Shown piece by piece: positions 4,132 to 55,884 of a DNA stretch of 64,000 nt. Every line of letters starts with the position of its first letter. Position 1 is the first letter of the stretch. Where the stretch lies: positions 5,952,001 to 6,016,000 of the forward strand of contig OX442314.1 of assembly GCA_949358305.1 (NCBI GenBank), read 5' to 3'. The notes beneath the pieces were generated by a model that was given only the letters and a program-made list of their open reading frames with translations, was not told the origin of the DNA and did no database searches. The position numbers were made by a program, and so were the translations under genes. Origin of the DNA: Strigamia acuminata. Taxonomy: Eukaryota.

Positions 4132-6047
4132 TGTGACGGTTTACAATGGCTATAAATGCCTATTTTCTTAGAAAGAAGCGCTGTTGCGCCATTATCATGA
4201 TATCTCGAAGATATTCTGTGTAAAACTGGTATAATTCCTAAATAAAGATATTTGGGATGTTTCAAATACAAAGATGTTCGTTTATTATTAATGAACACTC
4301 ATTTCTACATGATATAAATATATCACGGCCGAATTACGAAGAGTCGTCTGCTAAAACCCGCATTTGTCAATGCTCCATATTGCCACTAGATGGCGCGATC
4401 GCAATTAGCGGTAAATTCGAATACGAACTTGAAAACCTCATGATTAAATATAAACGTATATTTAATCAAGTGAATAAATTGTGTTAAATATTAATATAAA
4501 TATATATTAAATATCTGACATTGTTAAATACAATGTAACTTCCATTTCTGCGGGACAGAATGTTTAGCGATCAATCGGTCAACCGATCAATCTGATTGGT
4601 GGAACCCATTTCCGGTCCTGGGTATCCAGTTCCGGTTGTAACAAGGATTAGCATAATTTGCATAAATGCTCCTCCGTATCCACTTCCGGTGATACGGGAT
4701 TGGAGGAATTCATGGAACCAATGTTCCAATTGGATAGTTGGATTAATCCTTAATCCAGTCAGGTTATATAAACCCAAACAACCAGCCATTCCGCAGCTCT
4801 GTTTGATTATTTCTGTTTGGTATTGTTACTTATGAAATATGATTCGTTGTTCACGTAAAAAACCTTTTGGTTCTTTGTTGATTTATTCGCAAAGAACCGT
4901 TGCATGATTCTACAGAATCATGCCACCGCCGGCAATTGAAGTCGAAGTGCTGGGATTATTATGTTGCATAAATGTTACAGTCTACGGTTGCGACGCCGAA
5001 GGAGAACCCGCCGTTGTGCAATTCAGTATCCTCCGGACAGGACCAAGTTGTCTTTTTCGGTATGAACGTATTCCGTTACCACGAGTAGCATCGGTATTGT
5101 TGAGAATTGGTTCCTTCACCTGATGGTGCCAAAGCAGTCTGTTTTACAGTAACCACGAGTAGCACCAAGTGTTTGGCAAGCTGATTCTCATGGTATTCGA
5201 TGCCAAAGCAGTCGGTCTATTATTAGTACCGCGAGAGATTAAACTGCTGTGCGGAGCCGCGAGCTATCGACCCCTGTGTACGTGGTACCGTCAACCACTC
5301 GATGGACGACCGTGCTGCGACGCCGGGGACGCTTGATACCGTTCTGCATGGCAAGGCGTATATTCTAATCGATGGCAATTGTGTGTTGCGACGGGAAGAT
5401 TAATCTTTATCTTTATTTATAACAGTGAAATCTAACTTGGGAACAAGTTAGTCAAAATCAAGTCAAGTAACTCGAATTACTTATATATTGTATTCAATAT
5501 AATTATTAAGTTGGCGACAACTTAGTTACAAGAACATCCAAATAGGAAAACACAACGATACGAATTAAATATAATTCGTATAGCGGAATATTGATAACTA
5601 AATGAATACATTTAGTTACACCAATATCCTCCCAAAGTTGTGGCGGTGCACATGAGTCAACCGCATCTCTCAGATCATTCGATTCATCGACGTGCGATGA
5701 TATTACACAGCGAACCAAGGAACCAGCGAAGCCGTATCGGACTCCAGGACACAGCCATCCGGCTTAGATGACATCTATAACCAGGTCGAGCGATGGGAAA
5801 ACCGCTCCCATCCCATGGACACGTAATGATATTATTATAAAGCCATTTGGCTAACTTGTTGTATAGTTTAAATGATTATTTAACGGGCCAAATGTCGGCG
5901 TTAGTCCTATGTATAAATTAGCTTTGATATTATTGTTTGCCAACAATAAACTGTCTTGTATTTATCTCGTATTATATTCACTGTTATTCTATTGCGATCT
6001 ATTCCCGGTACCATTGTTAAATGGGAGTTGTGGTCGTCACCGTCACA
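4132..6047 (+). repeat. 5' LTR of element A
   Basis: TGTGACGG...CCGTCACA termini. Near-identical to 52255-55884 once solo LTR E is removed. TATATAAA at 4765, AATAAA at 5945. Confidence 0.95.
4383..4421 (+). promoter_or_regulatory. U3 composite motif: CTCF-like CCACTAGATGGCGC plus E2F/CHR-like GCGGTAAATTCGAA
   Basis: Matches the CTCF core consensus and resembles the E2F-CHR (DREAM) element. Related motifs lie in the LTRs of B, C, D and E. Protein binding is inferred. Confidence 0.5.
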
Positions 6048-6049
6048 CG

Positions 6050-6067
6050 TGGAGGTCCCACCGAGAT
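6050..6067 (+). promoter_or_regulatory. Primer-binding site of A, complementary to the tRNA-Gln 3' end
   Basis: TGGAGGTCCCACCGAGAT, 2 nt after the LTR, is the reverse complement of ATCTCGGTGGGACCTCCA. Confidence 0.9.
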
Positions 6068-7336
6068 AGGTTGCAATTAATTCAAATGAATTGCAACAGT
6101 GAATAATTGAGATAAATTTTAACTAAAAGCTTAGTTAAAAACAGACAAGTAGTTTTCAGTTTTACCTCTCATCCGAGAAGTTAAATTGATTAAATAGAAA
6201 CGTTTAAAGTGAAATTTTCCTTCATTATTTTCGTTCGAAAATTTAAGGGATTTCAAAGATCACCAACCCATCTCACACGATCACCGAGATAGGTTGCAAA
6301 GTTTAAATTCATGAGAATTTAATAAAGTGAATTCAGAAATAAATTGAGATTAAAAAACTTTAAATAAGTTTGACAAGTAACAGTTTCAAAACAAATTTTA
6401 TTTTCTCGAAGAAAATTAAAAACCCAGCCCTTTACAAAAGGAATTTCGAAATTCCAAACCCATCACAAGTGAAAGTTATATCAAGATAGGTTGCAAGTTA
6501 ATTCGATTGAATTGCAAAAGAGAATTTTGAGATAAATATTTAAACTAAAAAGATTTAGTTAAAAACAGATAAAACAGGTAAATAGATTTTCAATTTACAT
6601 TTTCATGTGAAAAAGTTAGGCTGATAAATTAGAAACGTTTAGTGCATTTTTCTTTTACCATTTTCGTTCGAAAAATTAAAGGAATACGAAGTATTTTAAA
6701 ATAAGAAATCAAAAGTTTCGAGTGAAATAAGAAAACAGATATTTTTTGATGTTTGTTTTATTTGAAAAGCTAAAATACGTACAAATTTAGACAGCGGACT
6801 TCCTACGAATTTATCTTTACACTTGAAAGCTAAAAACAAGAAAACACCGCAACTATTTAGAAATATTTACAAGAAATTAAGTTTCCTGTAACGGTACGTC
6901 GACGCCGATACCCAGCGACCATGAGCCGTAGCAATACGCGACGATCTCCGTTAAAAGCGTGACCGGAAAGCCCCTCAAAACCTTCGACGCAAGGTGCGAA
7001 CGAATGCTTGGAAATTACGGCGGACAAACGGATAAAAAACAGCGTGGAAATGTTACCGAAGGTTCGTAGAGATTTATTTAAGTATTGTGAACTTATTTTC
7101 CACTGCCGTCGGTACCCAAGATAATTTAGTTGTTTTAAAAAAATAACACACTCCATTTCGCGGAAAAGATTTGCAAATCGAAATAAATATTACCTTTATT
7201 TTGAAGGAATTAACTATTTTCAAAAGGTATAGTTTTCTTCGGAAAACAATGGAAAATTAAAATGGCGACAAATGAAATTGCCGACCACATGGAATAGTAT
7301 ATTTTCGTCGAAAATTAGGAATCACAATAAACAGTT

Positions 7337-8918
7337 TGTGATGATTACAAATCAATAGTTGTCAATGTTCACCATAGATGGCGCTGTTTAACCAACGCGC
7401 GTATTTCAAACTCGGTTAAAAACTAAAAAGTGTGATAAATAATTATTTAGACACGGTGAATAAAATATAACTATTTTATTCGATATAAATTAAGTATTAA
7501 TTACTTGATGATGTTGATTCTATCGAATCAATGTCCACTTTACTTACCTGTCGAAGGGAACCAATCGGACCCTTCCGGACCCCAACTGGGCCCATCTGGA
7601 CATAGTCACATATTAGGTCCGGACTAGTGACCCACGAATCCGCCGATTCGTACGCTGATTGGCTGTCGCCAATCTAGTAGTTCTACAGAACTATATAAGC
7701 ATCAGTTTTCCACTTCCCCAGGGCTTGGCTTGATAACTGTAAATGTCTGTAATTGAATTGTTGTTATCGTTTGATTTCACTTTCTTATCGACACATCAGG
7801 CCTCCTCAGCTCTCAATGGATATGTAGACTTACTATCTCGTTATTGCTTGTTGTAAGGCCCATCTGGGAAGGCTAACCTTGTAGACATGTTAACAACATG
7901 AAATGGCCCCGTAGTGTTAGCCAGCTGTTCTAAGGGACAGTAGGATTTCATACGGTGGCATAGTATAATGCTCATGCACGGGATTGACTAACCCGTTAAA
8001 TAAATGTCAAACTATATGATCGGTGATAGTCGCATCTATCTGAGCGATTCCTCGGACGAGGGTCAGACGCTCTGCCAAGAGCGTGTGTGCGGGAGGTCCC
8101 ACCCGAGCACGAAACAAACACGGACAAATGCTATTCCAGGGCGAATTGCGTATCATAGGTCCTTCCGTACTTTAGTGGTCGGTGAATGGCATATTTAAAG
8201 GCACACTACGCCGGGTTGGTAGCCCGTGAGAATTGTCCGTGAAGACATTTCGTTAAACAATTACTCAGGTATTGGTAATCCTGGAATTGGTAAATCCATA
8301 GGAATGTTTACCCGGTGGTTGGTACCACCGATAGCGATGTAAAGCGTACAAACAAATACTCGGCGCCTGATCACGAGATCTTGTCGTCGTAAGGCATGCT
8401 GGCGGATGGAGCCTCAACAACTCCCGCGACGGTCCTGTCGACTGTCGTGACTGTCCCCGCCCCATTAATATTTATACAACAATTCATTTGTTGTATTCCA
8501 CTAATCACTTTGTATTTATTTGACCTGGAATATTCTACAGAATATTCCTTTCCATACGAAGGACTCTTCGTATTATTAGATATTCGAGCTGCGGACCAAA
8601 TGCGTCTCCGTAGCGATATTTGTGACGATGCCGCAAGTCAGCCGTATCCCTCTGGCTTCGCCCGGATCCTCAACCAGTTGATGCCGCCCGTTTACACGCG
8701 TCAAGAACCCATTTACTGTTATCATTAATATTTAGTAATAAATATGTTAAGTCACACTAAAACTGTAAGTTATTTCTATTCGATCACATATTCATGTTTG
8801 TAAAGGCTTCCGTAGCTTATCTCGGTTAGGTTGTTGCTAAACTTAGCAACGTCTTGTATAAACCGAATTATCTATCTTAAAAGGACTAATAAATTGGCCC
8901 AAAAGTAGAATCGTCACA
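7337..8918 (+). repeat. 5' LTR of B
   Basis: TGTGATGAT...ATCGTCACA. Direct repeat of 19796-21377. TATATAA at 7692. Confidence 0.97.
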
Positions 8919-8920
8919 AG

Positions 8921-8938
8921 TGGAGGTTCTACCGAGAT
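8921..8938 (+). promoter_or_regulatory. PBS of B (tRNA-Gln)
   Basis: TGGAGGTTCTACCGAGAT, 2 nt after the LTR. Confidence 0.88.
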
Positions 8939-10054
8939 AGGCTGCCAAATTTTAAATAAAATTTGAAGTTTTGCATGTCTATGATGAATTCAAGTGGTGT
9001 AACGTTTATGGTGATTTTTGTGTGAAAAATAAATTTCGTTCGAGATTTATAAGTGTTTAATATATTTTATTCTGTTTTAGGACTTCTCGCAAGAAAAATA
9101 AGTGTAATACACTTTATTCCGATTTTCCGTCGGAGAAATTATGTGTTTTAACAAAACTAATAATTTCTACCGCGTGGTCAGGCCTAAAGGTCCAACCCCG
9201 AGAATAGGAGTCTTGCCCGAACTTGTTGAAGTTGGTTCCGCCCGGGTAACGTCATTTTGTCGTCGACAATCTGACAAAACCACGCGGTCGGGCCTAATTT
9301 TGAAAAGTTGACTTGTTGATGGAATTCTTAAAGAATTCTATCAATTTAATAGTTGTTTTAATTTCAGAATATTCTTTTATATGTATTTTGCTTGAGACTT
9401 CAAGTTAAACCTCAATTTATTTGCCTAAATAAAATAGAAAGAAAATTAACGCTTTTCGAAGGAATTAAAATTTATATTTTATTTCAAAGTGGGTTTACAT
9501 TATTTTACAGACTTGATCTACATTAAAATGTTGGTTAAAAATCATGATCTCAAGTCATTGAAATCGAATTTTACGAATGGAATACCATTCGAATTTTAGC
9601 GAAGAAGAATTCTCGCTGTTTTGTTGCCAAGCAACCCGTGTTGTGCAGAAAAGCCGTCGATTCAAACGAATTGGCGCGTCTTTTGAAATTACGAGTTTTA
9701 AAACTTTAAAAAAAAAAAAAAAAAATTCCATAAAGGTGATCATTCATTTATTAATAAATGTGGTGATATTTTAAATATTTTGAAAAGTATCCATTTTGTT
9801 TGGTGACTACGTCATAACACTGGAATCTGTCAAGATTACGGTTCCACGAACTTGATGATTTCCACCAATCTAGGACGAGATTGGACTCTCGCGAGACTAG
9901 CGTTGATATTTGACCAATCAGAGAGGTGTATCGAAGTACCCTTACTTCCTTTCGAACTAGTGTGACCACTGCTTCGTTTGCGACCCTCCTGAACGTTTGC
10001 AACTTCATCGTTATCTCTCAGACTTAGGAAATTTTCTTAGTTTTAAGTTTAGTT

Positions 10055-12286
10055 ATGACTAATAACCAGCATCACATGAACACCCGTGGTAAGGAAAGAA
10101 CTTGTTTGACCGGTGGAATGAATCTATCCGGGTTTATACCTGTTCCTAATGGAATTGAAGAAGTGGGAAACCACGCGGTCCATAATGGCGTTTCAAATGA
10201 AACAGCCGGACCATCTGGAGAGAATAGAGCTCCACGTGAACCTACTCCGCCTGGAGAAGAGGAATGCATTCCTGAAGGTTCTCATTTAGGCCGAGGCGGT
10301 CTATTATTTTGTCAGGATCACGGTTTGAACCCAAACCAATTTAGATCTTTGACCGAAGTGTTAGATTTTATACACGCGCCTCGTGCTACGTCGGAGCAAT
10401 CCCATTCCCCAGCCAGCCAAAGATTAAATAATTTTAGTCCCACTCCTTCGACGCCTATTTCTAGATATAGAAATAAAAATGCACAACCTCCTCGTCAAGA
10501 TCAGTCGAATTTGACACCAGGAGATTTTAATCGTGCTTTTCAACAACGATTACGAGCGAATAACTTCGCTCGCAACCGACAAAGAGGATTTACAAATCCA
10601 GAAAACTTTGAGAATACGTTCAACAGAGCGAATTTGGGTCCGCCTAACATGGCCAACCCTAATCCAAGTTTTCCAAACGGATCAAATAGTTGTCCGAATC
10701 TCGCTGGAAATTTGAACCCAAATTCAGGTGTGACAAGAGGTCCAAACCGTCGTTTTGACCCAAACTCTAGATTTGCAAACAATTCTAGTCCAGCACCTAA
10801 CATGCAAAGGGGTCACCCAGTTCCTCCGAACTCGAATAACCCAAATAATCCTTCTACTGGAACTCCAGGAAATTCAAATAACTATTTGAATCAGGGTGCG
10901 CCAGATAATTCGAACTATCGTCCGAATTTTGGTAATCAAGAAAATTCGAACAACCGCCCGAATTTTGACAATCCGGGTAATTCTAATAATCATTCGAATT
11001 ATGGGAACCGAGGCAATTCGAATAACCATTCGAACTTTGGTAACCACAGCAGGTCAAATCAAGGAGGGTCGAATAATTTCAACCCTAATAGTGGTGGCTC
11101 AAGTCAAAATAACTCGAGTCAACCAAAAAATAATGGCGGGTCGTCAAACGACAACTCGCGCCCCCCTAGTAGTTTTGGAATGACGGCTGATGACCTCGCG
11201 TCAATTGCCACAACCATGCACAAATTAATGCAGGCTGGAAAAAGTTCCGCCACTGTCCCTCAAACTAACAGTTTGAAACCCCCAGATATCCCTGTATTCT
11301 CAGGAAAAGCAGAAGAAAGCGAACGCTTTCTCAATATTGTAAAAAATGTCGCTTTTCTGCGAAACATGTCACTCGATGACATGCTTGTTAAAGGCGTTGC
11401 TGGTTATCTAACCGAGCAAGCGCATGGTTGGTTTCATGAACGAAGAGAAGATTTTATATCTTGGGAAGTATTTGAACAGGCGTTCAAAGAACGATTTGTA
11501 GCCACTCGACAAGAGCGGACGAACCAACTAACTAAGTTGAAACAACTGGAAACAGAAAGTCTTTACGACTTTATGCACAAATATTACCAGTTATGGATAT
11601 TACAAGACAGTCTTGATGCAAAAGGGGCTGGTTGTCTTTTTATCGGGAGTGTAACTCCTGCTAATGATTTGCTTTTACATACGCAAGGCATAGCGGATTT
11701 ACCTCTGACAGAGATTTATTCCGTTATAACGAAAAATAAAGGCTTGTACAGTCGTACAGCTAATGGAGCAAGGGAAAATATCTCCAATCCAGTTGTTTTC
11801 CCACCTCGGAAAACTGACACTCGTCCTCAGCCGAAGACAAATGCTAAATCTTTAACTTTGGATTCACAAGAACAACTTAATATTTGTGAAGAAGAGTTAC
11901 CAGAGGAATGCGAGGCCGTCTATTTAATAAATGGAGTAGTAGATCAGACCAGACGTGGTCAATTAGTTTGTTACCACTGTAAGAAACCAGGACACATGCG
12001 TCGAGAATGTCCAGATTTAAAACCACGTGCAAAGTTCAACTCTGAAGAGTTGCCAAAACGAAGTACGCCAGATTCCCCGACTGTGGATCCTACTTCTAAA
12101 CGTCCTAATAACAGATGGATAACTCAAGAAGTGTTGGATGCAACACTGGATGCTAAACTTGATGCGAAATTAAATACTTTTGAAAATAAGTTACAAACTT
12201 CGCTGACTAACTCATTGGCAGAAATGGTCAAGACTTTGATCAAGCCCGAATCTGCTGATTCAAGTGCGACTAGTTCAAAAAACTAG
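10055..12286 (+). CDS. gag: Gag of B (743 aa)
   Basis: Asn/Gly/Pro-rich N-terminal half, retrotransposon capsid-like region (IPVFSG...AHGWF...WEVFEQAFKERF), CCHC knuckle CYHCKKPGHMRREC. Confidence 0.95.
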   Translation: MTNNQHHMNTRGKERTCLTGGMNLSGFIPVPNGIEEVGNHAVHNGVSNETAGPSGENRAPREPTPPGEEECIPEGSHLGRGGLLFCQDHGLNPNQFRSLTEVLDFIHAPRATSEQSHSPASQRLNNFSPTPSTPISRYRNKNAQPPRQDQSNLTPGDFNRAFQQRLRANNFARNRQRGFTNPENFENTFNRANLGPPNMANPNPSFPNGSNSCPNLAGNLNPNSGVTRGPNRRFDPNSRFANNSSPAPNMQRGHPVPPNSNNPNNPSTGTPGNSNNYLNQGAPDNSNYRPNFGNQENSNNRPNFDNPGNSNNHSNYGNRGNSNNHSNFGNHSRSNQGGSNNFNPNSGGSSQNNSSQPKNNGGSSNDNSRPPSSFGMTADDLASIATTMHKLMQAGKSSATVPQTNSLKPPDIPVFSGKAEESERFLNIVKNVAFLRNMSLDDMLVKGVAGYLTEQAHGWFHERREDFISWEVFEQAFKERFVATRQERTNQLTKLKQLETESLYDFMHKYYQLWILQDSLDAKGAGCLFIGSVTPANDLLLHTQGIADLPLTEIYSVITKNKGLYSRTANGARENISNPVVFPPRKTDTRPQPKTNAKSLTLDSQEQLNICEEELPEECEAVYLINGVVDQTRRGQLVCYHCKKPGHMRRECPDLKPRAKFNSEELPKRSTPDSPTVDPTSKRPNNRWITQEVLDATLDAKLDAKLNTFENKLQTSLTNSLAEMVKTLIKPESADSSATSSKN

Positions 12287-12317
12287 ATCCGGGGGACGAA
12301 GGTTTATTCCATCCCCC
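12277..12317 (+). promoter_or_regulatory. -1 ribosomal frameshift signal between gag and pol of B
   Basis: A AAA AAC immediately before the gag TAG, 7-nt spacer, GGGGGA...TCCCCC stem. The -1 frame is open into pol. Confidence 0.85.
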
Positions 12318-12321
12318 AGAA

Positions 12322-15300
12322 GTGGCTAATGCTACGTCGGAATCTTTGTTTATGGATGTAGACACAACTTGTCTTGAAGTAGCCACTAGTCATAGTGGCG
12401 GAGTAGAGGAAAATCTGCAAGAAATGACAGAACAATTAAAAAATCTGACATTGTTTCCACACAAGTGCTACACGAAGAAATTCTGTAGACTCCGCCGACT
12501 CAACAGAGTCATAGGTGGTAATAATTTGCACAATATTACTTTGGGTAATAATAAAGATGATCCTCGAATGAAGATCACAATTGGTGGGCTCACCTACAAC
12601 GCGCTCATGGATACAGGAGCATCTCAATGTTACATTGGGGAACAACTCTTGTCTGAAACTCAGGCTTTGCCAGAATTTTTGCAAGAAGCCCCTAGAAATA
12701 TGTTGGTTAACGCTGTAGGCGTAGCACACAAGCCTGTCGGACAAATAACTTTGTGCGTGCAATGGGCTGATGAATTTACACCAATGAATTTCATCGTTTT
12801 AGCAAAACGAGTTTGTGGCTTGATACTTGGTCACAATTTCATGCGCAGACAGAAAATTAGTCCGCATCCACATTTACAAGAGTTCTCTTGTGCAGATAAA
12901 CCTAATTGGTCCGCCCCTTATGAGTCGGAAGAAGCCAATTTGGCCCTCGCCCCGTTAAATCGAATTACTTTCGATTATTTAGGACTGTCGTCCATTCTCA
13001 ACTCAATTGAGTTAACAGACACTCCTGTGTTGACTTGGGATGAAAAATTAGTTGAGGAGAGCGACTGCACTCCGGAGCAAAGATTAGCACTTCGCGAAGT
13101 GGTTAAATCGATACCGAATGTATTTCGTGATCAAGTTGGGTGCACTAACGTGACCCAGCATCGTATTAAGTTCAAAGAAGGGCATTCATTGCCCAAAATG
13201 CAGTATAGAATGTATAACCCGGCCAAGAGAGCCATTATGACCAAACTAGCTGCAGAATTGGAACAGGATGGACTCATTGAAAAGGCCAAGGGGCCCTTCA
13301 TAAGTCATCCCGTCATTGTTGCGAAGCCTGACGGCTCGTATAGGATGTGCATTGACTACCGGTGGCTAAATGCCATCACCGAAGTCGAAGTAATACAAAT
13401 GCCAAGTATTGACCTTTTATTGCATAATACTGGTCCTGCTAGGTATTTTACGTCAATTGACCTTGTCAAAGGTTACTACCAAGTCGAGATGTGTAAAGAA
13501 GATCGACCAAAGACGGCATTTTACACGCCAAATGGTCCATATCAGTTTGTGCGAATGCCGTTTGGCCTTTGCAATGCGCCTTGTACTTTCCAGCGTCTGA
13601 TGGAAGGCATTTTAGGCTCAGCTTTGCAAGACTACGCGTTAGTTTATTTGGATGACGTAATTGTGTATTCAGATAATTGGGATGATCATCTCAAACACGT
13701 TCGAGATGTTCTAGAAAGGCTTAACCAAGCCAACATGACAATAAATAAAGCGAAATCTCGTTTTGGGCGTACAGAATTAAAATTCTTGGGCCACTGGATT
13801 AAACCCGAAGGTCTCTTCGGTGATCCCGATAAAATATCGGCGATTATGAAATTTCCCACCCCCACGTGTGCTAAAGACATTCAGCGCTTTCACGGCATGA
13901 CTAACTTCTTCAGGAAGTTTGTTCCAAATCACGGAACTATTGCCGCACCATACACACGTATGATGAATGAGAAAACTCCATTTGAATGGGGAGATGAGCA
14001 GACAGAAGCTTTTAATAAAATTAAAGAGCTACTTTGTGGTGACAATTGTCTACACAAACCAGATATGACTTTACCATTTGTTGTCATGACTGACGCTTCA
14101 CATGAAGGCTTAGGAGCTGTCCTTTGCCAAGACGTCGATATATTCGATGAAAAGAAGCAGAAAAACATTTCTGTACCCAAACCTGTAGCTTATGCAAGCA
14201 GAGTTTTACGTGGAGCGGAGAAGCGTTATACAACGCCGGAACTCGAATGTCTCGCAGTTGTGTGGGCTATTGATCGATTTAAACCATATCTCGAATATGG
14301 TACATTCACTTTAGAGTCAGATGCAGAAGCACTGAAATGGTTGATGCGAACGCCTGAACCATCTGGGAAATTTGGCCGATGGGCCTTAAGAATCCAATGT
14401 GGAAATTTTAAAATTGTTTTTCGAAAAGGTGCTGCTAACCAAGTTGCAGATGCACTTTCTAGAGCCCCACTAACAGAGGAAGACATTCCTCTTCGAGATC
14501 ATGTGGAACCTGTCGAAATTAAACAATACTGGCCTGAGTGGGACGGAAATCCTTCTGTTTCATTAAATCGTGCCCCAGAAAAACGAGAATATTTGGCTAG
14601 TGTGCGTTCCTATTTTTCTGAAAATTCTAAAGAATGTTCTGAAGAAAAGGAGGGGGAGGAAGTACAAGAAACCTTGTACAGTGCGTTGACTGAAGTACTT
14701 AAAGAAGTCCCTCCTACAAGGAGAGAAATAATAAATGCTCAATTACTAGATAATGAATGCAAACGCATTCGAGAATATTTATTGAATAACAAGGTTGTTG
14801 GGATACCACAATCTGAAATAAAAGAATGGAAAAACAAAGTCAAAAATTATTGTTTAGACAAAAAAGAAGTTGATGGTGATCAAATGATCATCTATTTTAA
14901 CCCTTCATTCGAAGAGGAATTAAACGATTCGGGAAATGGCTTTAAAGCCGTTGTACCCAGTGCACTTGTAAAGCGAGTACTCTTCGCTTGTCATGGCCAC
15001 CCCCTAAGCGGTCACGCTGGGATGAGTAAGACGCTTGAGAAAACGCGTTTAATATATTTCTGGCCTGGTATGAGTAGAAGTGTCAGGAACTACGTCAAAA
15101 GCTGCACGCACTGTGCTCAGTACAAGCCTATTCAACAGAAAAGGCACGCAGCTCCTTACACGCCACACAACATGACCAATCCTTGGGAATGTATTAATAT
15201 GGACTTGATGGGCCCAAAACCCGCGGGAAGGTCCCAAAACCAGTATATTTTTGTCATTATTGACAATTGTACCAAGTTCGTTGAAATTAAGGCTTTGACA

Positions 15301-16482: not shown

Positions 16483-17532
16483 TAAGTTTTATTCAAAACT
16501 TGAAGACTGTAATTATTTACATGTCAGACAGGTGTAGTGATTTATAATCTCAACACCGGGGGACAAGATATTACGATATTTATCGAAATTTGTATTAAAA
16601 TATGAATTTGTTGCGATAAGTCAAAATATTCGATAGAATATTTTATTATGTGGTCAGATTTATATGTATTTTAATTAAAATACAGAGAATTACTTTGAAA
16701 AGTGATAATCTCGCGTAATTACGAAGGTACGAGACTTACGAGGTGTGATTAAACCTCGAACCCGACAATTAATAGGGAATAAAATTCCCAGGGTTCATTG
16801 CACACAAACACTTCGTAAAAAACACGGATACTAGTGACTTCGTCCCTTCGACCCGTCTTCATTTTTCGACTCGAGATTTCCACGCTAATTCAATTAGCGA
16901 CTTCAGCAAGGAAAACAAGCTTCAACAGTAAGTAGTTTTCAAATATATTCTTTGACCAAAGAATTGAAAAAATTGTTTGCAACAATTGAAAATATCGGCG
17001 TCCCGATAAAAGTTAAAAAATTCACGTGTATTATAAGCGTGAATCGGCATTAAATCACTCTGGAAGTTTAGCTATTCAGTCGAATAGTTGGGTTAAATTT
17101 AATAATTATTTATTAAGTTTAAGTACGTGGGCACTAATTATTTAAATCAAGTCGCGGTCGAGGCTTGCATAAATTATTTAGCGGTGAATTTTCGATTTGA
17201 GATATTCATTAGACTAAGTGTTAATTAATTAATACGAAAAGTTATCTTTGATACTCGGAAGTTGGATTAAATAGTTTAAAGAAACTAAGGGGATTTTTCT
17301 TTTGAAAATTCAACAAGTTGCGATTTTCGATGAAAAATCGCTGTCAGGCGAGTCCATTCTCGTGTCATAAACACAAGGGGAATGTGACTCATTAGTGTCA
17401 CGTGTTAGGGGTTATAAATAACTCGAGCTGTGTATTTTTCGTTGCGAACAATACGTTTTAATTCTTTGGACTCAAGGAATGATTATTTAGAGTGGAATTA
17501 TTTTTAATAAAATAATTTATTTGCGTCTGCAG

Positions 17533-19785: not shown

Positions 19786-19795
19786 CCGGGGGATG
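19786..19795 (+). promoter_or_regulatory. Polypurine tract of B
   Basis: CCGGGGGATG abutting the 3' LTR. Confidence 0.8.
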
Positions 19796-22045: not shown

Positions 22046-22172
22046 AAAACGGTTTTGATTGGTTTTGAACGGGGCAAAACGGTTTTGATTGGTTTTGAAC
22101 GAGGCAAAACGGTTTTGATTGGTTTTGAACGGGGCAAAACGGTTTTGATTGGTTTTGAACGGGCCAAAACGG
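22046..22172. repeat. 30-bp tandem repeat, ~4 copies
   Basis: AAAACGGTTTTGATTGGTTTTGAACGGGGC repeated. Confidence 0.95.
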
Positions 22173-22194
22173 CATTGTTACGTTTTTAGCACTA

Positions 22195-36421: not shown

Positions 36422-36439
36422 ATCTCGGTAGAACCTCCA
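36422..36439 (-). promoter_or_regulatory. PBS of C (tRNA-Gln)
   Basis: ATCTCGGTAGAACCTCCA on the + strand, 2 nt from the LTR. Confidence 0.88.
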
Positions 36440-36441
36440 CT

Positions 36442-43400: not shown

Positions 43401-43615
43401 ACTGCCAAATTTATTTTTCTACAAAACTTATAAACCTGTTAATTTTAAATGAATTCTAATGCCAAAATACATTTATTAAAAAATTGGTTTGATTCCAGAT
43501 GAAGCACGAAAAGAAATATTTCAAAAAAACTGATTATTCTATACTTATGGCGCGCACCTTATTGGTGAAATAATCGTCCTATACTAACAAAGTGTATGAC
43601 AGTGTAACCGTCACA
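40461..43615 (-). repeat. 3' LTR of D, interrupted by a Tc3-like transposon
   Basis: Matches 49801-51390 after removing 41997-43561. Confidence 0.95.
41997..43559 (+). mobile_element. Non-autonomous Tc3-like (Tc1/mariner) DNA transposon with ~520-bp imperfect inverted arms
   Basis: TA duplication at 41995-41996 and 43560-43561. Termini AGGTGCGCGCCATAAGTATAGAAT. Decayed transposase motifs VLFTDKIQFNLDGLDG (~42755-42802), VMVW and WVFQQDNA. Confidence 0.88.
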
Positions 43616-43802
43616 AGTCCCCCTTAAATATATGTTAATTCCATTGAATTTACATACTATTTACTCATCTTGAGGATCAAGACCACACTGTCATCTAGGG
43701 AACTCGAGCTGAAATTCTTGGTAAGGGAAATCTCTATTTTATAACTTAATCATATAAAATAAAGTTCAACCTTCAATCAAATGCTTCAAAATATTGTGTT
43801 TT

Positions 43803-46800: not shown

Positions 46801-47400
46801 TGATTAGTATGATGAATTAATAGGTCAATACTTGGCATTTGAATTGCATCAACTTCTGTGATTGCATTCAACCAGCGGTAGTCGATACATAATCGATACT
46901 TCCCGCCGGGTTTAGCCACTATGACGGGGTGACTTATATAGGGGCCAGTGGCAGGTTCGATTAACCCATCGGCCTCCAATTCCTCGACCAATTCCGTCAT
47001 AATGGCCTTCTTGGCCGGATTGTACATTCTATATGGCTGGTGTTTCCAAGTAGCACCAGGTTTAAACTTGATGCTGTGCTTGGCAACCTTCGTGCAGCCC
47101 AATTGATCTCGAAATACGTTTTTTGCTTCCAAAAGAACGTTTACGAGTAACTGTTTTTCTTCCGCCGAGCTGTTGCAGCCTTCGACGAGTTTTTCTGCCC
47201 AGTCAGGTGAAGTGGGAGTTCCTTCACCTTGGAGACCTAAAGTCCTAATGTTTGCTAAGCAACAGTTAAGTTCAGTGGTCTCGTATGGTGCTGTCCATCC
47301 GGGCATGTCATCACAGGTGAACACAGCCCGTCGGGGATTAGGGTTTATCCCCGTTCTACGCATAAAATTGTGACCCAAAATTAACCCACATACATTCTTG
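43803..47400 (-). CDS. pol: Pol of D (RT-RH-IN intact; protease N-terminal part including DTG deleted)
   Basis: YLDD, TDAS, HGHPLTGH...CTHC, SDNG. Begins abruptly at KNVCGLILGHNF, compare KRVCGLILGHNF in B. Confidence 0.9.
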
Positions 47401-48894
47401 TGTACATAACGCCGTGAAACTTTCTTGAGTTAAATTGTCGAATAATTGTGCACGTCCAGTTTTATCACCTGGCGGCACTTCACCTTGTTCTTGCGTATAA
47501 CGCAGAAGAAAACTATAAAGTGATTCGTCGGCTCGTTGTTTTACATTAAGAAGTCGCCTTTCTCTTGTAAGTGGAACGAGGTCGAAACAATCGAGAAAAG
47601 AGGCTTCGAAAGTTCGCCAACTGTTAAAAGTATGGCGTTGCTTATGGAACCAACGTTGTGCATGGCCTAATAGTCGTCCAGGTACAGCAGTGTGTACCAT
47701 GTCGTCTAAAGGAATGCCTTTCCCGAGTGCGACAGCTTTGACGATTTCAAGGAATCGCGCAACCTCTGTCTGTTTCCCGTCAAAAATAGGAATCTCGATT
47801 CCTTTTCCAAAATTCTGACTGGGATTACTCGGGCTTCGGATTTGACCTACTAAACCCTGAATAATTTGTTTTACATTTTCGTCTGACAAATTAGAAGCAG
47901 CGTTCGAGTTGGGTGTAGACCGACTTTCTTGGTCTCGGGGTGGCGGATTTGGTTCTCCTCGAAAATTTTGCTGTCTATCAGGTGGCAGTGGAGAACGCGA
48001 ATTATTTCGTTGGTGGAAATTATTGTTATAATTTCCCCCTCCACCAGCGTGAGATTCGTCACTACTCGAGTTAGGATCGGAGTCACGAGGATCACCAGGA
48101 GCTCCGGGAAATCGTTGATTTCTCGGCGGAGCTCGTCCACCTTGAGAGCGGGAATTTCTATAATTCCTAAAATCTCCATCAGATTGGGCGTGAGATTGAA
48201 AATTTTGATAATTTTCATTTCTCCCCCTTGGTTGGACCGACAGATTAGTTCGAGGCTGTGGAACTCTGAAAGAATCATTCAAATTCCCAGTGGGAGCGGG
48301 TAAATTATTATTTACTGCCGTCGCACTTGGCAAATTTCGGGAAATTGGCGCAGAAATATTTCCTTGTCCGGAATTTCCCATTCTTTCGGCCGAATTCGAT
48401 CGCCAAGAACTAGCTGGTAACTGAATCGAAGGTTGAACAGATAGTGAAGAATTTAACTGCCCATTGTCGTCACGAGCAACATTCATTCGCCATCCAGGTA
48501 ATTGCTGGTAGCGATATGTGGCCGGTGAACGAGGGCCAGTTCGATCTACAGAAACACTTCGTTCGTTGGTTACAACTACATCGGGAGTAATTACACGATT
48601 TCTCTCGTGATGATTATTCGCCGTGTATTGTTGAGCTTCACACAAAGAGGAAAACTGCGTCACTTCCAATTGGTAATGGCGACAATAAACTTCTAAATCA
48701 TGCGGGACTGATAGTGGATCCGTTCGAGAACTACCCGGGTTGGAAACGTCTCTAGGAACATTTTCTTCCCCCTGGCTTTCTAAATCAGACTCCACAATTC
48801 CTCTTGGTGTTTCACACATACCACCACGTCGTCGTGCTCCACGATTTCCTCGTGTTCCACGAACTCTTACAGGTCTACGGGCCATAATACTCAA
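47356..48894 (-). pseudogene. gag: Gag of D, C-terminally truncated (no zinc knuckle)
   Basis: IPIFDG...AQRWFH...WRTFEASF capsid-like region. Homology to B Gag stops at CTQ (~47400), where pol sequence is joined out of frame. Confidence 0.85.
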
Positions 48895-49780
48895 AGAAAT
48901 ACACGTACAAAAAGAAAAAATAAAATTTAACTGAACTAGCGTAAATGTAACACGCTTAATATTAAACTAAGAAATAATTTGAAAAAATACAACCTTAGCT
49001 GCTGAAACTGAAGTGGCTTCGGGAAAGGACTGTCCTGTTGCGTGGTCAAGAATGGTCCAAACGGGCACTGGTCACAAAGGCACAACTGGATGGTCGCACT
49101 GTCGAGAAGCAAGTGTGGCTGAATATTGGTTGTCAAACTAGCTTCCGGAAAATCTCCTTTGTCAAGACAGTCTGCTGTGATTGGCGATGTTGAAAAATTC
49201 CTGATAATTTCTAACCCGAAATTCTCAACAATCCCACATCTGGATGACCTACTCCGAGCTGCATCGTGAGTGGCTCTCTTTGTCACATTCTTTGCCTTGT
49301 CAAGGATTAAGAATAATAATCCAGAACGTTGAACAGAACAATAGAAACTTGGTCAAGTTTTTTTAACCAGTAAAATAAAATATTTTAACTTTTTATTTTT
49401 CAGTCAGCAAACTAAAAAATATTTTTATTAATATATTTTTTCAGCAGAATTTCTAGTCAAATTCGTTTTTTGATTGAAATTCAAGGTTTCGAAATTTTCC
49501 AGAATATAGCCGAATATTCTGGGAAACTCAATAAAACCAAAATAGATTTTTTTGTAGGAAATTCGGAATTATAATGAGTTTTCAAAATAATCCAAAAATT
49601 GGAATTCAGATATTTCCAAAAGATAATGAGAATTTTTTGAAAACAAATGAATATTTCACAGTAAATTTATAGAGAAAAAATCGGAAATTTTCTAATTATA
49701 ATATCTACATAAAATAATCAAAAAATTCATTTTTCAATTTTACACTTGATCACAGAGTTCACTTCAATAAAATGCAACCT

Positions 49781-49798
49781 ATCTCGGTGGGACCTCCA
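49781..49798 (-). promoter_or_regulatory. PBS of D (tRNA-Gln), identical to that of A
   Basis: ATCTCGGTGGGACCTCCA on the + strand, followed by CG and then the LTR. Confidence 0.9.
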
Positions 49799-49800
49799 CG

Positions 49801-51390
49801 TGTGACGATTACCTTCTGGAGATAGCAATTGCTAAACTAAAGTGTGAACTATCTGTGTGAAAGTGTAAAATATGCAAACCTGATGTTTTCTCAAAACATA
49901 TAACATTTATTCCGGTTTGAACCTTATATAAATACTATGCCTACAAGTGGCTAAAATGACGATAAGTTAAACTATACAGTTATTTGGCAAAAGCCCTGAA
50001 ATAATATCATTTGAAGGCTTCAGTCATGCAATAAGAATTTGTAACGGTCTTATTGCTGTGACGTAAAAGATGTCATCTATGAATGGCTTTGGCTTCTAAA
50101 TGGTCCGGGGTTGGTTCTAAAAGGCGTGTAAATGGTTAGGCTGGGTGGGTTATATCCGAGAGGTGCGGTTGACTTTTCTGTATCGTCACACACATCGCAT
50201 CGCAGATAATTGTTGAAATCATTAATTACCGCAAGATGTAACAATGTGAGAATAAATAGTCATATTAATTCTATGGAATTAATCATGATATTTTAGAGTC
50301 ACAAACTTAACTTAAACTGTGAAAATAAGTAGAATATATTAAAATAGCGCCGAGCTATTTTTTGCCCCGAGTGCAATCAACATCTAAGTTAGACTTAAAT
50401 GTTCCGTCAAACCAATAACGAATTGAATCGAAATATCTCGCAGGAAAGGTTATCCATCGCCGGGAAATTACTCCACTCGGTTCTGGCTGGCGGGAGAGTA
50501 ACCGGGAAATTACTCCGCGTCGATTACTCTGATAATGCGTCTGTGAAATATAAATACTCCACTCTAGATTCTACATTACCAATGCGTCTGTGAATTTTAC
50601 TCCACTCTAGATTCTACATTCTACAACGGAATGTTGGCATGAAGCTGGAGGGAGTGCGTCTGTGGGTTGTACCCCACTCTAGATACTACACTTAAATGTG
50701 TCTGTGAATTACTCACTCTAGTTACGACATTTCTACAACGGAATGTTGGCATGAAGAGGCGGGAATGTGTGTCTGTGAGTCTTCTACCCACTCTAGATAC
50801 TTACACTAAATACAAAGTATTTCTACAACGGATTGTCGGAACGCAGAGAAGTATAATATGTGCTCAAGTAATATCAGTATCAAACAAAAACAGAACAAGA
50901 GCGAGCTATATCCGTTTTGCAGGGGGATATATACTCGGTGAGGAGAATAGCTGTTCAGTGATCCAATGGGATCACTGGGCAGTCAAATCCATCCAATCCT
51001 AGATCACAGGAAGTGGATACTCAGGACATAGTCTTCTACTAGGTCCACTACAGGAACTGGATACGCAGGACACACTTTGGATTAAGTCCCTTTGACTATA
51101 ATCCGAAAGGAGTCCAACTCACAGTGGGTGATGAAGGGTGACTTCACCAGGTGTAAAGTTTGCACATAATTCAATAGAATTATGTGACAAATAAATCAAC
51201 TAGTTTTTAAACATCCAAAAGTATTTAAAAGTGTCTAAAGTTGCAGTGGAATAAAATATAAATAGTAATTTATATTTTATTCACTCAAAAATTGTCGAAA
51301 TTTGAATTTACCGCTAAAACGCATCAGCGCCATCTATTGGTGAAATAATCGTCCTATACTAACAAAGTGTATGACAGTGTAACCGTCACA
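49801..51390 (-). repeat. 5' LTR of D
   Basis: TGTGACGAT...CCGTCACA. Direct repeat of 40461-43615. Confidence 0.96.
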
Positions 51391-51394
51391 AGTC

Positions 51395-51667
51395 AAATAT
51401 AGGGCCCCTCGTAAGTTGCGAGGTTTCACAATTCCGAATATGGGTCCTTTCCATGTATGGTTATCCAATGAGGGTCCCATTCATGTATGGTTTTCCAGAG
51501 ATGATCTAAAGCGAAAGTTTGGGTCGTCACGGTCATTTACACTGCCAAGTGAGTACACTACATGTAACTGTCCAAAGCATCGAAAGAGATCATTAAGGCA
51601 GACTGAGAGATCTCGGAAATTAGCTCTTAAGCGCGCTCAATATTTTACAAGGAATCATGTTGACTAA
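51395..51667 (+). pseudogene. 3' part of the ORF of element A
   Basis: Removing D and one TSD joins ...PRLRV (40460) in frame to KYRAPRKLRGFTIPNMGPFHVW...NHVD*. Confidence 0.7.
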
Positions 51668-52254
51668 ACATGATAAGACACACAAAGATTTCCCGATTAT
51701 AGTGTAAAAAGAAAAATCCTTTTCTATGAATCATGATCTCTTTTCTAGAGAAAAGGGGGACAAAATATAAAGTTAAAATTAACAAATCTCGAAAAGTAAT
51801 GCTACATTATTAAAAGACAACTAGTTTAATTAAATTAGTCAATTGTACAAAGAATACCAAGTGACTCCGGTCATGACAATTAAAGGGGACAATTATGATT
51901 TCTAATTGTCAAAACTTATCATCTAGAACTATTATTTATAGCGATACATCTGACTAGGCATATGAAATAAATATTTTTGTGATAACACAAATGATGATGT
52001 TATGTATGACGAAGGTTTCTTCAAAAGAAAACTTAGAAATAAATTCTCAACTTGAATTTGTGCTATTGGAAAAGATTATTTCGGCAGAAATCCAGAACTT
52101 AGATAATTTAAAGTTAGTTTATGTAAACTCAAATTCGAAATTGGAAGTCACAGTATCTCCAAGATACATCAGGTCCGAAAATAGCATTTATGCTAATTAG
52201 GAGAATAACGAAAATTCTATAAAATTTTATATAATTGTGTTATTAAGGGGGATG

Positions 52255-55200
52255 TGTGACGGTTTACAATGGCTATAAATGCCTATTTTCTTAGAAAGAA
52301 GCGCTGTTGCGCCATTATCATGATATCTCGAAGATATTCTGTGTAAAACTGGTATAATTCCTAAATAAAGATATTTGGGATGTTTCAAATACAAAGATGT
52401 TCGTTTATTATTAATGAACACTCATTTCTACATGATATAAATATATCACGGCCGAATTACGAAGAGTCGTCTGCTAAAACCCGCATTTGTCAATGCTCCA
52501 TATTGCCACTAGATGGCGCGATCGCAATTAGCGGTAAATTCGAATACGAACTTGAAAACCTCATGATTAAATATAAACGTATATTTAATCAAGTGAATAA
52601 ATTGTGTTAAATATTAATATAAATATATATTAAATATCTGACATTGTTAAATACAATGTAACTTCCATTTCTGCGGGACAGAATGTTTAGCGATCAATCA
52701 GTCAACCGATCAATCTGATTGGTGGAACCCATTTCCGGTCCTGGGTATCCAGTTCCGGTTGTAACAAGGATTAGCATAATTTGCATAAATGCTCCTCCGT
52801 ATCCACTTCCGGTGATACGGGATTGGAGGAATTCATGGAACCAATGTTCCAATTGGATAGTTGGATTAATCCTTAATCCAGTCAGGTTATATAAACCCAA
52901 ACAACCAGCCATTCCGCAGCTCTGTTTGATTATTTCTGTTTGGTATTGTTACTTATGAAATATGATTCGTTGTTCACGTAAAAAACCTTTTGGTTCTTTG
53001 TTGATTTATTCGCAAAGAACCGTTGCATGATTCTACAGAATCATGCCACCGCCGGCAATTGAAGTCGAAGTGCTGGGATTATTATGTTGCATAAATGTTA
53101 CAGTCTACGGTTGCGACGCCGAAGGAGAACCCGCCGTTGTGCAATTCAGTATCCTCCGGACAGGACCAAGTTGTCTTTTTCGGTATGAACGTATTCCGTT
53201 ACCACGAGTAGCATCGGTATTGTTGAGAATTGGTTCCTTCACCTGATGGTGCCAAAGCAGTCTGTTTTACAGTAACCACGAGTAGCACCAAGTGTTTGGC
53301 AAGCTGATTCTCATGGTATTCGATGCCAAAGCAGTCGGTCTATTATTAGTACCGCGAGAGATTAAACTGCTGTGCGGAGCCGCGAGCTATCGACCCCTGT
53401 GTACGTGGTACCGTCAACCACTCGATGGACGACCGTGCTGCGACGCCGGGGACGCTTGATACCGTTCTGCATGGCAAGGCGTATATTCTAATCGATGGCA
53501 ATTGTGTGTTACGACGGGAAGATTAATCTTTATCTTTATTTATAACAGTGAAATCTAACTTGGGAACAAGTTAGTCAAAATCAAGTCAAGTAACTCGAAT
53601 TACTTATATATTGTATTCAATATAATTATTAAGTTTGTGACGATGACCTTTCGATGACGCTATCCGCTCAAAATGTGTATTTTGGCATAACAAGCAAGTC
53701 TATCAATTCTAGTAGTTGAGAGATAAGTTAACAAACCTAAAGTGTGAACTGGGTAAAATAATGAAACCGGTGGTTATCAAGACATAACATGTTTATTGAT
53801 ATATAAATATAATCACCGAGAAGTGATTATATTAATCAATTTGCATAAAATACAATTATACATTGACTATGCCGACAATTGGCCGTATAAATTGGTCGAT
53901 TAACTATACATACATTCGCCTAAACGGCGCTATGATAATATCAAGTCGGCTTCATCGGGTCAGTAAGATGTCATCTGAATCGGATGATTATTTGGTCCTA
54001 GTTGTACATCGGGGTCTGGTTCGAATCTGTAATGAAAAGGTTAGTATCCGAGGACGTCCGGTTGACGGTATCTGCATCGCCACAAACTTGGGGCGGTTAT
54101 TGGTTTAAATGGCTTGTGAGAGCCACTTACCAATTAACCTCTTATAAATGTTTTAAGACATTCATAATTGGTGTGATACGTCAAACTGGTTCTTCATACG
54201 AGAGTAAACTGTTGCGAGTTTACAATCATAACTTCTGGTTCCGTGTAATGGATGTATTTATTAGAGTATTACTTTTCAGTAAATACTCGTAATAATTCTG
54301 CTTACATAAAGTTGGCAATTTAGCTACACATCTACTGGCAAGTAAATGCTAATGTAGCTAGTCTTCAGTTTTGTACAGTTCTGGAAGAAGTATCCATGTT
54401 TATGCACAATGTTAAGTGTGACATAAACCAGTTGGGGATTTAATCTAACTAAACTTTTCCGAGTTTAGTTATTTCAACCCTAATGTTACATTTTCGACAC
54501 GCTGTTCGGCAGCCGTGGTTTACTGTAACTGGCAGGCCTTGTGGAACACTTGTTGAATTATATCCGGCCCGACGGGATTCTTACTACTCATCGCCGCGAC
54601 CTGATCTCCTCACGGCCACACAGCCGTCATCGGGCACCCGGACATGGAGGCATCATATCACCCATCTCCACGTCAAGTGTACGCCGTATGTAGGTTGTCA
54701 TAGGCCCGCAGTATAAGGGGCATTGACTGCGCAATCAACAGACAAGCAAGTGTCTGCGCAATCAACATGACAACCGGAGTAGTAGAAAGGGCTCAAGAAA
54801 ACATATAGTCAAAATATCTGGTCAAGAGCGAGTTACTTCCTGTTGCGAGGAAGTATATACTCGGGGAAAACAATAGCTTGGCCATTGCTCCAATGAGAGC
54901 AATGGTCCTGCAAATCCCCCCAATCACTGGTCCAGGTGATGGGATACTCAGGACACATTTTCAGTTCAGGTGGTCAGCTAGACAGACCATAGCTCTCTGC
55001 TAGGTCGGGACAGGAACTGGATAGCGAGGAACACTTTTGGATTAAGTCTTTCAACTTGATCCGCGGGGGTCCACGCTTGGAGCAAGTGCGAGGGGGAGAT
55101 TTAATCTCCTAAACCTAGTTTTGAGGTAACTTTGCAGAGTTATCACAAAACAACATAATATCTATATTTATTGCCATAAATATAAGATAAAGTCGATTCT

Positions 55201-55884
55201 CTGCCTTAAAATCACATAAAAGTTGCATTTTATGTGGTTTTACATCAAGTGACAAATTCTATTCGAATTTGCCGCTTTTGGTCGTCAGCGCCATCTATTG
55301 GCGTAATTTGTCGCTATATCGATGAGCGACTGCATGATCGTCATAAGTTGGCGACAACTTAGTTACAAGAACATCCAAATAGGAAAACACAACGATACGA
55401 ATTAAATATAATTCGTAGAGCGGAATATTGATAACTAAATGAATACATTTAGTTACACCAATATCCTCCCAAAGTTGTGGCGGTGCACATGAGTCAACCG
55501 CATCTCTCAGATCATTCGATTCATCGACGTGCGATGATATTACACAGCGAACCAAGGAACCAGCGAAGCCGTATCGGACTCCAGGACACAGCCATCTAGC
55601 TTAGATGACATCTATAACCAGGTCGAGCGATGGGAAAACCGCTCCCATCCCATGGACACGTAATGATATTATTATAAAGCCATTTGGCTAACTTGTTGTA
55701 TAGTTTAAATGATTATTTAACGGGTCAAATGTCGGCGTTAGTCCTATGTATAAATTAGCTTTGATATTATTGTTTGCCAACAATAAACTGTCTTGTATTT
55801 ATCTCGTATTATATTCACTGTTATTCTATTGCGATCTATTCCCGGTACCATTGTTAAATGGGAGTTGTGGTCGTCACCGTCACA
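52255..55884 (+). repeat. 3' LTR of A, interrupted by solo LTR E
   Basis: Matches 4132-6047 with ~6 substitutions seen. Preceded by the PPT. Confidence 0.95.
53636..55345 (-). mobile_element. Solo LTR E (1710 bp) of a family related to D
   Basis: TGTGACGAT...ATCGTCATA termini. TSD AGTT at 53632-53635 and 55346-55349. Shares GGATACTCAGGACA, CAGGAACTGGATA, TTTGGATTAAGTC and CAGCGCCATCTATTGG with the D LTR in the same orientation. Confidence 0.88.

What the first reader, a model, noticed from the sequence alone, without database searches (positions are those of the whole stretch)
4132..55884. A non-autonomous LTR element that acted as a landing pad for its relatives
Seen: A (~9 kb native) holds four LTR insertions (B, C, D, solo E) and two MITEs. 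None of the LTR elements sits inside B, C or D (~39 kb together) or in the ~12 kb of flank. Every LTR pair, including that of A, differs at only ~2-6 positions, so the pile-up was rapid and recent. Three of the four inserts are antisense to A. It pushed the two channel genes from ~3 kb to ~55 kb apart. Inference: integrase targeting to A-family sequence or chromatin, or a nascent piRNA-cluster-like trap transcribed from the A LTR.
Basis: partly seen in the sequence, partly recalled or inferred. Interest (0 to 1): 0.72.

Follow-up and report, generated by a model that had tools for sequence, protein, structure and literature searches.

The report
Retrotransposon pile-up in a centipede element
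In a centipede genome, four related jumping genes landed inside one crippled 9-kb jumping gene and swelled a 3-kb gap between two ion-channel genes to 55 kb; this likely reflects a local insertion hot spot during a recent burst, and the idea that the whole host family acts as a deliberate trap remains untested.

Summary
The anatomy is real. A (4,132-55,884; 9.3 kb native, no pol) holds B, C, D and solo LTR E, each with an intact 4-bp target duplication. LTR pairs differ at 6, 2, 3 and 3 sites. Named relatives point to a Strigamia-like centipede. Corrections: B and C are one family (93.8%), D is itself deleted, and a third MITE sits inside D's LTR. Four hits in one element is far above a uniform null under assumed totals. 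Avoidance of B/C/D is only suggestive (p about 0.01-0.10), and 3 of 4 antisense is not significant (p=0.31). Public contigs show that A is a family, roughly 90-105 copies in two runs of one study versus about 3 in another, with copies lacking C and D. One A-LTR/B-like junction appears elsewhere, which chance allows. Family-wide targeting and a piRNA trap are neither shown nor excluded. Best reading: a young, locus-level nest of a known kind. Side findings: a conserved zinc-finger-like third ORF in B/C, and channel genes built of two tandem units. Two look-ups of the scan's notes showed no earlier report of this nest.

The parts
4132..6047 (+). A 5' LTR (1,916 bp, TG...CA), followed by a primer-binding site identical to D's over 28 nt
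6048..7336 (+). A internal piece 1 (5' untranslated, GC 31.5%, diverged ~220-bp repeats); ends in B's target site
7337..21377 (+). Element B, Ty3/gypsy, sense to A; LTRs 7,337-8,918 and 19,796-21,377; open gag (10,028-12,286), pol (12,274-16,482) and third ORF; TSD AGTT
17533..19053 (+). B ORF3, 506 aa, Cys-rich core with CxxCxGxG-like motifs, no membrane segment, dN/dS 0.06 against C; relatives found only in Strigamia maritima gene models
21382..23802 (+). A internal piece 2, the 2.4-kb spacer between tail-to-tail B and C; holds two MITEs
21908..22649 (.). MITE 1 in A, 9-bp target duplication, internal 30- and 35-bp tandem arrays
22776..23416 (.). MITE 2 in A, TTAA at both ends
23803..38184 (-). 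Element C, same family as B (pol 98.8% aa), antisense to A; LTRs 23,803-25,545 and 36,442-38,184; ORF3 has an in-frame stop after codon 378 of the frame; TSD AATT
38189..40460 (+). A internal piece 3; frame 39,315-40,460 shares a 54-aa motif with the N-terminus of D Gag (41%, E 7e-8), has no Pfam hit, and is cut by D
40461..51390 (-). Element D, Ty3/gypsy (pol 56% to B), antisense; LTRs 40,461-43,615 (with MITE) and 49,801-51,390; lacks Gag zinc knuckle and most of protease; no ORF3; TSD AGTC
41995..43561 (.). MITE 3 inside D's 3' LTR, ~530-bp inverted arms, TA at both ends
51395..52254 (+). A internal piece 4 with polypurine tract
52255..55884 (+). A 3' LTR, split by E; A's TSD ACCA follows
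53636..55345 (-). Solo LTR E (1,710 bp), related to the D and A LTRs, antisense; TSD AGTT
238..3903 (+). Left host gene, DEG/ENaC (ASC) channel with two units in tandem; A inserted ~230 bp after its stop
58457..63813 (+). Right host gene, paralogous channel; frame shifts near 61,360

Best explanation
Four Ty3/gypsy relatives inserted independently into one non-autonomous element A, likely because this copy offered selectively harmless, AT-rich, accessible DNA beside host genes while its whole lineage was multiplying. Shown: five separate integration events with intact target duplications, near-identical LTR pairs, a shared purine-purine-pyrimidine-pyrimidine target 4-mer for all four inserts, and other A copies that lack C and D. 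Inferred: A is mobilised in trans by a D-like family; lineage integrases choose the 4-mer locally and favour AT-rich or accessible DNA; the later, GC-richer inserts were available for less time and were probably methylated soon after arrival, so they were hit less; E was a full element reduced to a solo LTR by recombination. The bias would belong to this copy and place rather than to the A family as an address.
For: TSDs 5 of 5. Uniform null rejected under assumed totals, so some local bias is needed, yet avoidance of B/C/D is only p 0.007-0.10. A is 35.5% GC against 39-42% for B-D, and 3 of 4 target sites lie in 20-40% GC context. Lineage abundance: single-contig depths give about 55 B-family copies in X2, and about 89 (X1), 106 (X3) and 3 (X2) A copies (rough). 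A and D share a 28-nt primer-binding region and LTR blocks. 6 of 14 LTR mismatches are CpG transitions (p=0.001), in line with TE methylation in S. maritima (PMC7343188, passages). Precedent: in Drosophila 60 of 263 primary nests have several inner elements in one outer element, and LTR-into-LTR is the commonest class (PMC1794594, passages); plant Ty3/gypsy favour UTRs of other elements (PMC6911290, Results part 1 and Discussion).
Against: No chromatin or expression data exist for this locus, so 'accessible' is untested. The flanks are as AT-rich as A (36.0% GC) and hold no LTR element. D landed in A's reading frame at 46% GC and E in an LTR, regions under-used in the plant data. 3 of A's 6 LTR mismatches are also at CpG, so A was probably methylated too. 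The target 4-mer is equally dense in A, B, C and D (64-69 per kb) and explains nothing about the choice of A. The ~90 near-identical A copies may be too young to have gathered inserts, so they do not exclude family-wide targeting.
Confidence: 0.5

Rival explanations
1. Family-directed targeting: the lineage's integration complex is tethered to A-family DNA or chromatin, for example through the basic integrase tail, the Cys-rich ORF3 protein, or a host factor bound to the AGATGGCGC motif shared by all five LTRs.
For: All four inserts are kin of A (shared termini, motif and primer-binding site). Inserts 2-4 all in native A has p 0.007-0.10. One more junction of an A-like LTR to a B-like LTR start, again after AGTT, exists in X1 (table 5c). 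ORF3 is under purifying selection. Autoinsertion is reported for some plant Ty3/gypsy families (PMC6911290).
Against: One outside junction is within the 0.3-1.9 expected by chance, though only part of the tables was shown. No chromodomain. The shared motif is also in the B, C and D LTRs, which took no LTR insert. D has no ORF3. Inserts are spread evenly along A, not near one motif.
Confidence: 0.22
2. Silencing trap: the nest was kept because transcription across it makes piRNA or siRNA. B and C form a 12-kb, 94%-identical inverted repeat with a 2.4-kb spacer, so read-through from either 3' LTR would yield antisense or hairpin RNA against their family.
For: Tail-to-tail geometry of B and C; 3 of 4 antisense; siRNA and piRNA pathway genes are present in S. 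maritima (PMC4244043, passages); a co-suppression role for nests was proposed in Drosophila (PMC1794594).
Against: Orientation p=0.31. B is sense, nearest to A's promoter, and its LTRs carry polyadenylation-type hexamers. A trap retains inserts but does not explain why none entered B, C or D. B/C is an abundant family, so two hits from it are unsurprising.
Confidence: 0.15
3. Assembly by recombination: the inserts arose on different A-bearing chromosomes or A copies and were brought together by crossing over or gene conversion, which gives a flat nest.
For: It explains the lack of secondary nesting. 4 of A's 6 LTR mismatches lie in the 541 bp right of E. Likeness of this A to the amplified subfamily varies from about 1% to 10% along its length.
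Against: A's own TSD is intact. It needs several crossovers within 1-2 kb intervals. The mismatch clustering rests on very few sites. It still needs four hits in A.
Confidence: 0.1
4. Assembly artefact from collapsed or misjoined repeats.
For: Long near-identical repeats; no listed contig was seen bridging the C or D junction, though the tables were cut.
Against: 5 of 5 target duplications match across 2-52 kb. Independent contigs leave the window exactly at D's TSD and continue into A piece 2 at C's site. B and C differ at dS 0.11-0.33.
Confidence: 0.03

Closest known systems
Drosophila TE nests (PMC1794594; passages read)
   Same: Several inner LTR elements in one outer element without secondary nesting is a described class (60 of 263 primary nests); LTR-into-LTR is the commonest type.
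   Different: Those nests are mostly pericentromeric (73%); this one lies between two genes, is very young, and all inserts are kin of the host.
Nested plant LTR retrotransposons and autoinsertion (PMC6911290; abstract, Results part 1 of 2, Discussion)
   Same: Ty3/gypsy nesting, a bias to related elements in some families, symmetric target sites.
   Different: Animal host; the outer element is non-autonomous; two of four inserts hit a reading frame or an LTR.
LARD and TR-GAG non-autonomous LTR elements (names seen in PMC10552921 passages; definitions recalled)
   Same: Long LTRs, PBS and PPT, no pol, multi-kb internal region.
   Different: A has a frame with only an N-terminal Gag-like motif: too coding for a strict LARD, no capsid domain for TR-GAG.
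piRNA clusters and the trap model (PMC6573471, PMC6587276; search listings only)
   Same: A dense run of young LTR elements, mostly antisense to one promoter.
   Different: Strand bias not significant; no small-RNA evidence; inserts are whole, not decayed.
Strigamia maritima Ty3/gypsy gene models T1IZB8, T1IMA5, T1IH97, T1IU31
   Same: Integrase region 48-49% identical; the ORF3 core is present, in two models downstream of pol remnants.
   Different: Fragmentary automatic models; no description of this lineage turned up in searches.

Membership tests
Ty3/gypsy LTR retrotransposon (B, C, D) | LTRs TG...CA, PBS, PPT, short target duplication | tested here: met
Ty3/gypsy LTR retrotransposon (B, C, D) | pol order protease-RT-RNase H-integrase; RT closest to Ty3 | tested here: met
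   Pfam order for B and C, with D lacking a protease hit; best PDB hit for B pol is Ty3-G Gag-Pol, E 7.5e-106
Chromodomain-targeted Ty3/gypsy (chromovirus) | chromodomain at the integrase C-terminus | tested here: not met
   no chromo family among Pfam hits at E<=0.01 for B, C, D pol
Env-bearing insect retrovirus (errantivirus) | third ORF encodes a membrane envelope protein | tested here: not met
   ORF3 maximum 19-residue hydropathy 1.12; no env family
Nested LTR cluster | each inner element flanked by a duplication of outer-element sequence; outer element continuous elsewhere | tested here: met
   4 of 4 inner TSDs; empty C and D sites in public contigs; the empty E site is A's own 5' LTR; the empty B site was not seen in the rows shown
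Nested LTR cluster | outer element older than inner by LTR divergence | tested here: inconclusive
   6/1,916 against 8/4,915, p=0.17
LARD | long LTRs, no pol, multicopy family | tested here: met
LARD | non-coding internal domain (definition recalled) | tested here: not met
   frame of at least 382 codons with a Gag N-terminal motif; 4 of 4 variant deletions inside it are multiples of three against 2 of 11 outside, p=0.011
TR-GAG | recognisable GAG domain (definition recalled) | tested here: not met
   no Pfam family in 39,315-40,520 and no gag family in 51,395-51,664
Uni-strand piRNA cluster | inserts antisense to one long transcript | tested here: inconclusive
   3 of 4, p=0.31
Uni-strand piRNA cluster | produces 24-30 nt 1U small RNAs | not testable with these tools
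   only assembled contigs were offered
TE-targeting (site-specific) retrotransposon | genome-wide enrichment inside one host family | tested here: inconclusive
   no genome held; 1 outside junction against 0.3-1.9 expected, tables cut

The most novel reading that the evidence does not exclude
A centipede Ty3/gypsy lineage steers its integration into a non-autonomous relative, using a lineage-specific zinc-finger ORF3 or a shared LTR-bound factor, so that the parasite A becomes a decoy sink for its own helpers, and the B-C inverted pair inside it seeds silencing of the helper family.
Probability: 0.1. Interest if true: 0.78.

Novelty: new member of a known kind. Interest (0 to 1): 0.38.

Why it matters
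As it stands this is a clean, young example of how a gene-flanked locus becomes a 52-kb transposon nest, in an arthropod group whose studied member methylates its transposons. If carriers and non-carriers segregate, and A copy number really differs about 30-fold between animals, it would let one test in wild material whether nests start by targeting, by shelter from selection or by selection for silencing. If family targeting were confirmed, it would be a rare animal case of autonomous elements aiming at their own parasite.

Tried and rejected
No whole genome is held, so the genome-wide enrichment test could not be run. No RNA holder was listed; this says nothing on expression. In one search, none of the 15 listed joints links A piece 3 to the C or D LTR end, where about 66 would be expected if about 90 copies were as dense as this one. 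Contigs drop rare variants and junctions between deep repeats, so this is not counted as evidence. All three runs show only the non-window allele at 3,514, and X1 and X2 at 3,590 and 3,594: a weak hint that the nest haplotype is not fixed, not a test. X6 covered 13 of 30 bins at very low depth and was not used. Target-motif density as the cause: rejected. Static probability 5e-4: rejected, it ignores insertion order. B/C as a local duplication: rejected by different TSDs and dS 0.11-0.33. ORF3: no hit in the word-index search, the Atlas or the PDB profile search; Pfam only weak (Anti-TRAP E 0.08); the fold model was poor (pLDDT 50, pTM 0.29), so no fold search was run. The Atlas search of A's frame did not complete. 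Rfam: 0 matches. Papers holding ENaC + tandem + Strigamia: 0. The scan's notes: 0 for this genome; 8 shown by words, none on this kind of nest.
Full report
1. Observation. Self-comparison of the window gives four LTR pairs and one solo LTR. Boundaries at the shared TGTGAYG...CRTCAYA termini give A 4,132-55,884 (TSD ACCA), B 7,337-21,377 (+, AGTT), C 23,803-38,184 (-, AATT), D 40,461-51,390 (-, AGTC) and E 53,636-55,345 (AGTT) inside A's 3' LTR. All 5 of 5 target duplications are intact. E is antisense, because its reverse strand matches the D and A LTRs. LTR pairs differ at 6/1,916, 2/1,582, 3/1,743 and 3/1,590 sites. Native A is 9,296 bp without its two MITEs. The gap between the host genes went from about 2.8 kb to about 54.6 kb.

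2. Host and elements. The flanking genes are DEG/ENaC (ASC) channels. All 3 hits of a search for longer relatives are Strigamia maritima proteins, the best 59% identical, so the host is probably a geophilomorph centipede. B and C have Ty3/gypsy pol order and D retains RT, RNase H and integrase; the best solved relative of B pol is Ty3. No chromodomain was found. A has no pol. It shares a 28-nt primer-binding region exactly with D, and short LTR blocks with D and E, so a D-like family is its likely helper (inference). From memory, the site matches a glutamine tRNA; I did not test that. A carries a frame of at least 382 codons whose only match among the window's proteins is a 54-aa motif at the start of D Gag (41%, E 7e-8).

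3. Other animals. No genome is held. Three runs of the same organism, from 2 studies, hold 51-62% of the words of 1-7,336; all are assembled contigs. Flank contigs have depths of about 54 (X1), 42 (X2) and 110 (X3) per haplotype. Single contigs of A's interior have depths near 9,000-10,000 (X1, 5 contigs), 23,375 (X3, 1 contig) and 207-247 (X2, 3 contigs). That gives roughly 89, 106 and 3 copies per haploid genome, and about 55 B-family copies in X2. The tool warns that summed depth is no copy number; these are single-contig ratios and remain rough, and X1 and X3 belong to one study. A 707-base X2 contig follows A to 40,460 and leaves exactly at D's TSD, and an X1 loose end at 38,195 continues into A piece 2. 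So A exists as a family without C and D, which confirms the anatomy independently. The amplified A form lacks a 90-bp stretch and differs by about 1-10% from this copy. Of the variant deletions, 4 of 4 inside A's frame are multiples of three against 2 of 11 outside (Fisher p=0.011; two of the four have unknown letters between), which suggests that the frame is kept open in the family.

4. Is the pile-up more than chance? With a genome of 200-290 Mb (290 Mb is the S. maritima estimate, PMC4244043, passages) and an assumed 300-3,000 lineage insertions, four or more hits in one 9.3-kb element has P 3e-10 to 1e-5, and 3e-8 to 1e-3 over 90 copies; at the highest total, 0.1-0.3 such windows are expected genome-wide. 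So a local bias is likely. Whether it is specific to A is weaker. Given a first hit in A, the chance that the next three avoid earlier inserts is 0.018-0.10 over all 24 orders, and 0.007-0.044 if 6-12 kb of flank is added. The window was also chosen because it held a nest. Three of four antisense has p=0.31. A is not significantly older than its inserts (p=0.17).

5. Mechanism clues. All four inner TSDs read purine-purine-pyrimidine-pyrimidine (post hoc p about 1e-4); A's own does not. The motif is equally dense in A, B, C and D, so it is a local preference only. A is AT-richer than the inserts (35.5% against 39-42% GC), but so are the flanks (36.0%). Six of 14 LTR mismatches are CpG transitions, while 9.5% of LTR bases lie in CpG (p=0.001). 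This fits the TE methylation reported for S. maritima (PMC7343188, passages) and means LTR ages may be overstated; 3 of the 6 are in A. All five LTRs carry AGATGGCGC near the 5' end; it resembles a YY1 site (recalled, untested). Outside this locus, one X1 joint links an A-like LTR to a B-like LTR start after AGTT (15 of 86 joints and 12 of 38 between-letter rows shown), against 0.3-1.9 expected by chance.

6. ORF3. B and C carry a third sense frame after pol, 506 aa in B, with dN/dS 0.06 over 378 codons (gag 0.15, pol 0.05) and dS 0.33 against 0.11-0.13, so the two copies may be mosaics. It has no membrane segment, so it is not env. A full HMMER scan gave 4 hits at E<=0.001; the best 3 are S. 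maritima models, two of them fused to pol remnants, and the fourth was not examined. They conserve CxxC...GW...CxNCxG. Its function is open. A role in targeting is speculation, and D lacks it.

7. Reading. I favour a locus-level nest (0.50): a harmless, AT-rich new target beside genes during a lineage burst, with later inserts exposed for less time. Family targeting (0.22), a silencing trap built on the B-C inverted repeat (0.15), assembly by recombination (0.10) and artefact (0.03) follow. The decisive genome-wide count could not be run.

8. Known systems. Flat nests with several inner elements are described in Drosophila (60 of 263 primary nests; PMC1794594, passages). Ty3/gypsy nesting bias and autoinsertion are described in plants (PMC6911290; abstract, Results part 1, Discussion). 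A works like a LARD or TR-GAG but fails one recalled defining feature of each. I read no supplements; the repeat tables of PMC4244043 may describe this lineage. Verdict: real, young, a new member of a known kind; interest 0.38.

Noticed in passing
window 1,634-2,491 and 60,983-61,746: Both host channel genes encode two DEG/ENaC units in tandem: one exon runs from the end of one ASC domain into the start of a second. S. maritima T1JEH2 and T1IL99 align across the same link. No paper held ENaC + tandem + Strigamia. DEG/ENaC channels are normally trimers of single units (recalled), so this may merit its own look.
   Followed up: partly
window 17,533-19,053 and 26,706-27,842: Conserved non-env third ORF with a zinc-finger-like core in B/C, dN/dS 0.06, named relatives only in Strigamia.
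   Followed up: partly
window 6,048-7,336 and 38,189-40,460 laid on X1, X2, X3: A-family depth suggests about 90-105 near-identical copies in two runs of one study and about 3 in a run of another: a possible population-specific burst of a non-autonomous element.
   Followed up: partly
window 39,315-40,460: A's Gag-like frame appears to be kept in frame across family variants (4 of 4 deletions are multiples of three), though it has no capsid domain.
   Followed up: partly
window 7,337-38,184: B and C form a 12-kb, 94%-identical inverted repeat with a 2.4-kb spacer, a candidate source of hairpin RNA or of rearrangement.
   Followed up: no
LTRs of A, B, C, D, E; MITE at 41,995: All five LTRs share AGATGGCGC near their 5' end, and the MITE in D's 3' LTR inserted right at the edge of this motif.
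   Followed up: no
window ~61,360: The right channel gene changes frame near a run of nine A: a real break or a sequencing error.
   Followed up: no
window ~7,740-8,350 versus the C LTR: The middle of the B and C LTRs is only 65-75% alike while the ends are about 90%, suggesting exchange of a regulatory module.
   Followed up: no
window 22,194-22,395 and 56,529-56,654: A related 35-bp tandem unit occurs in MITE 1 and in the right flank.
   Followed up: no
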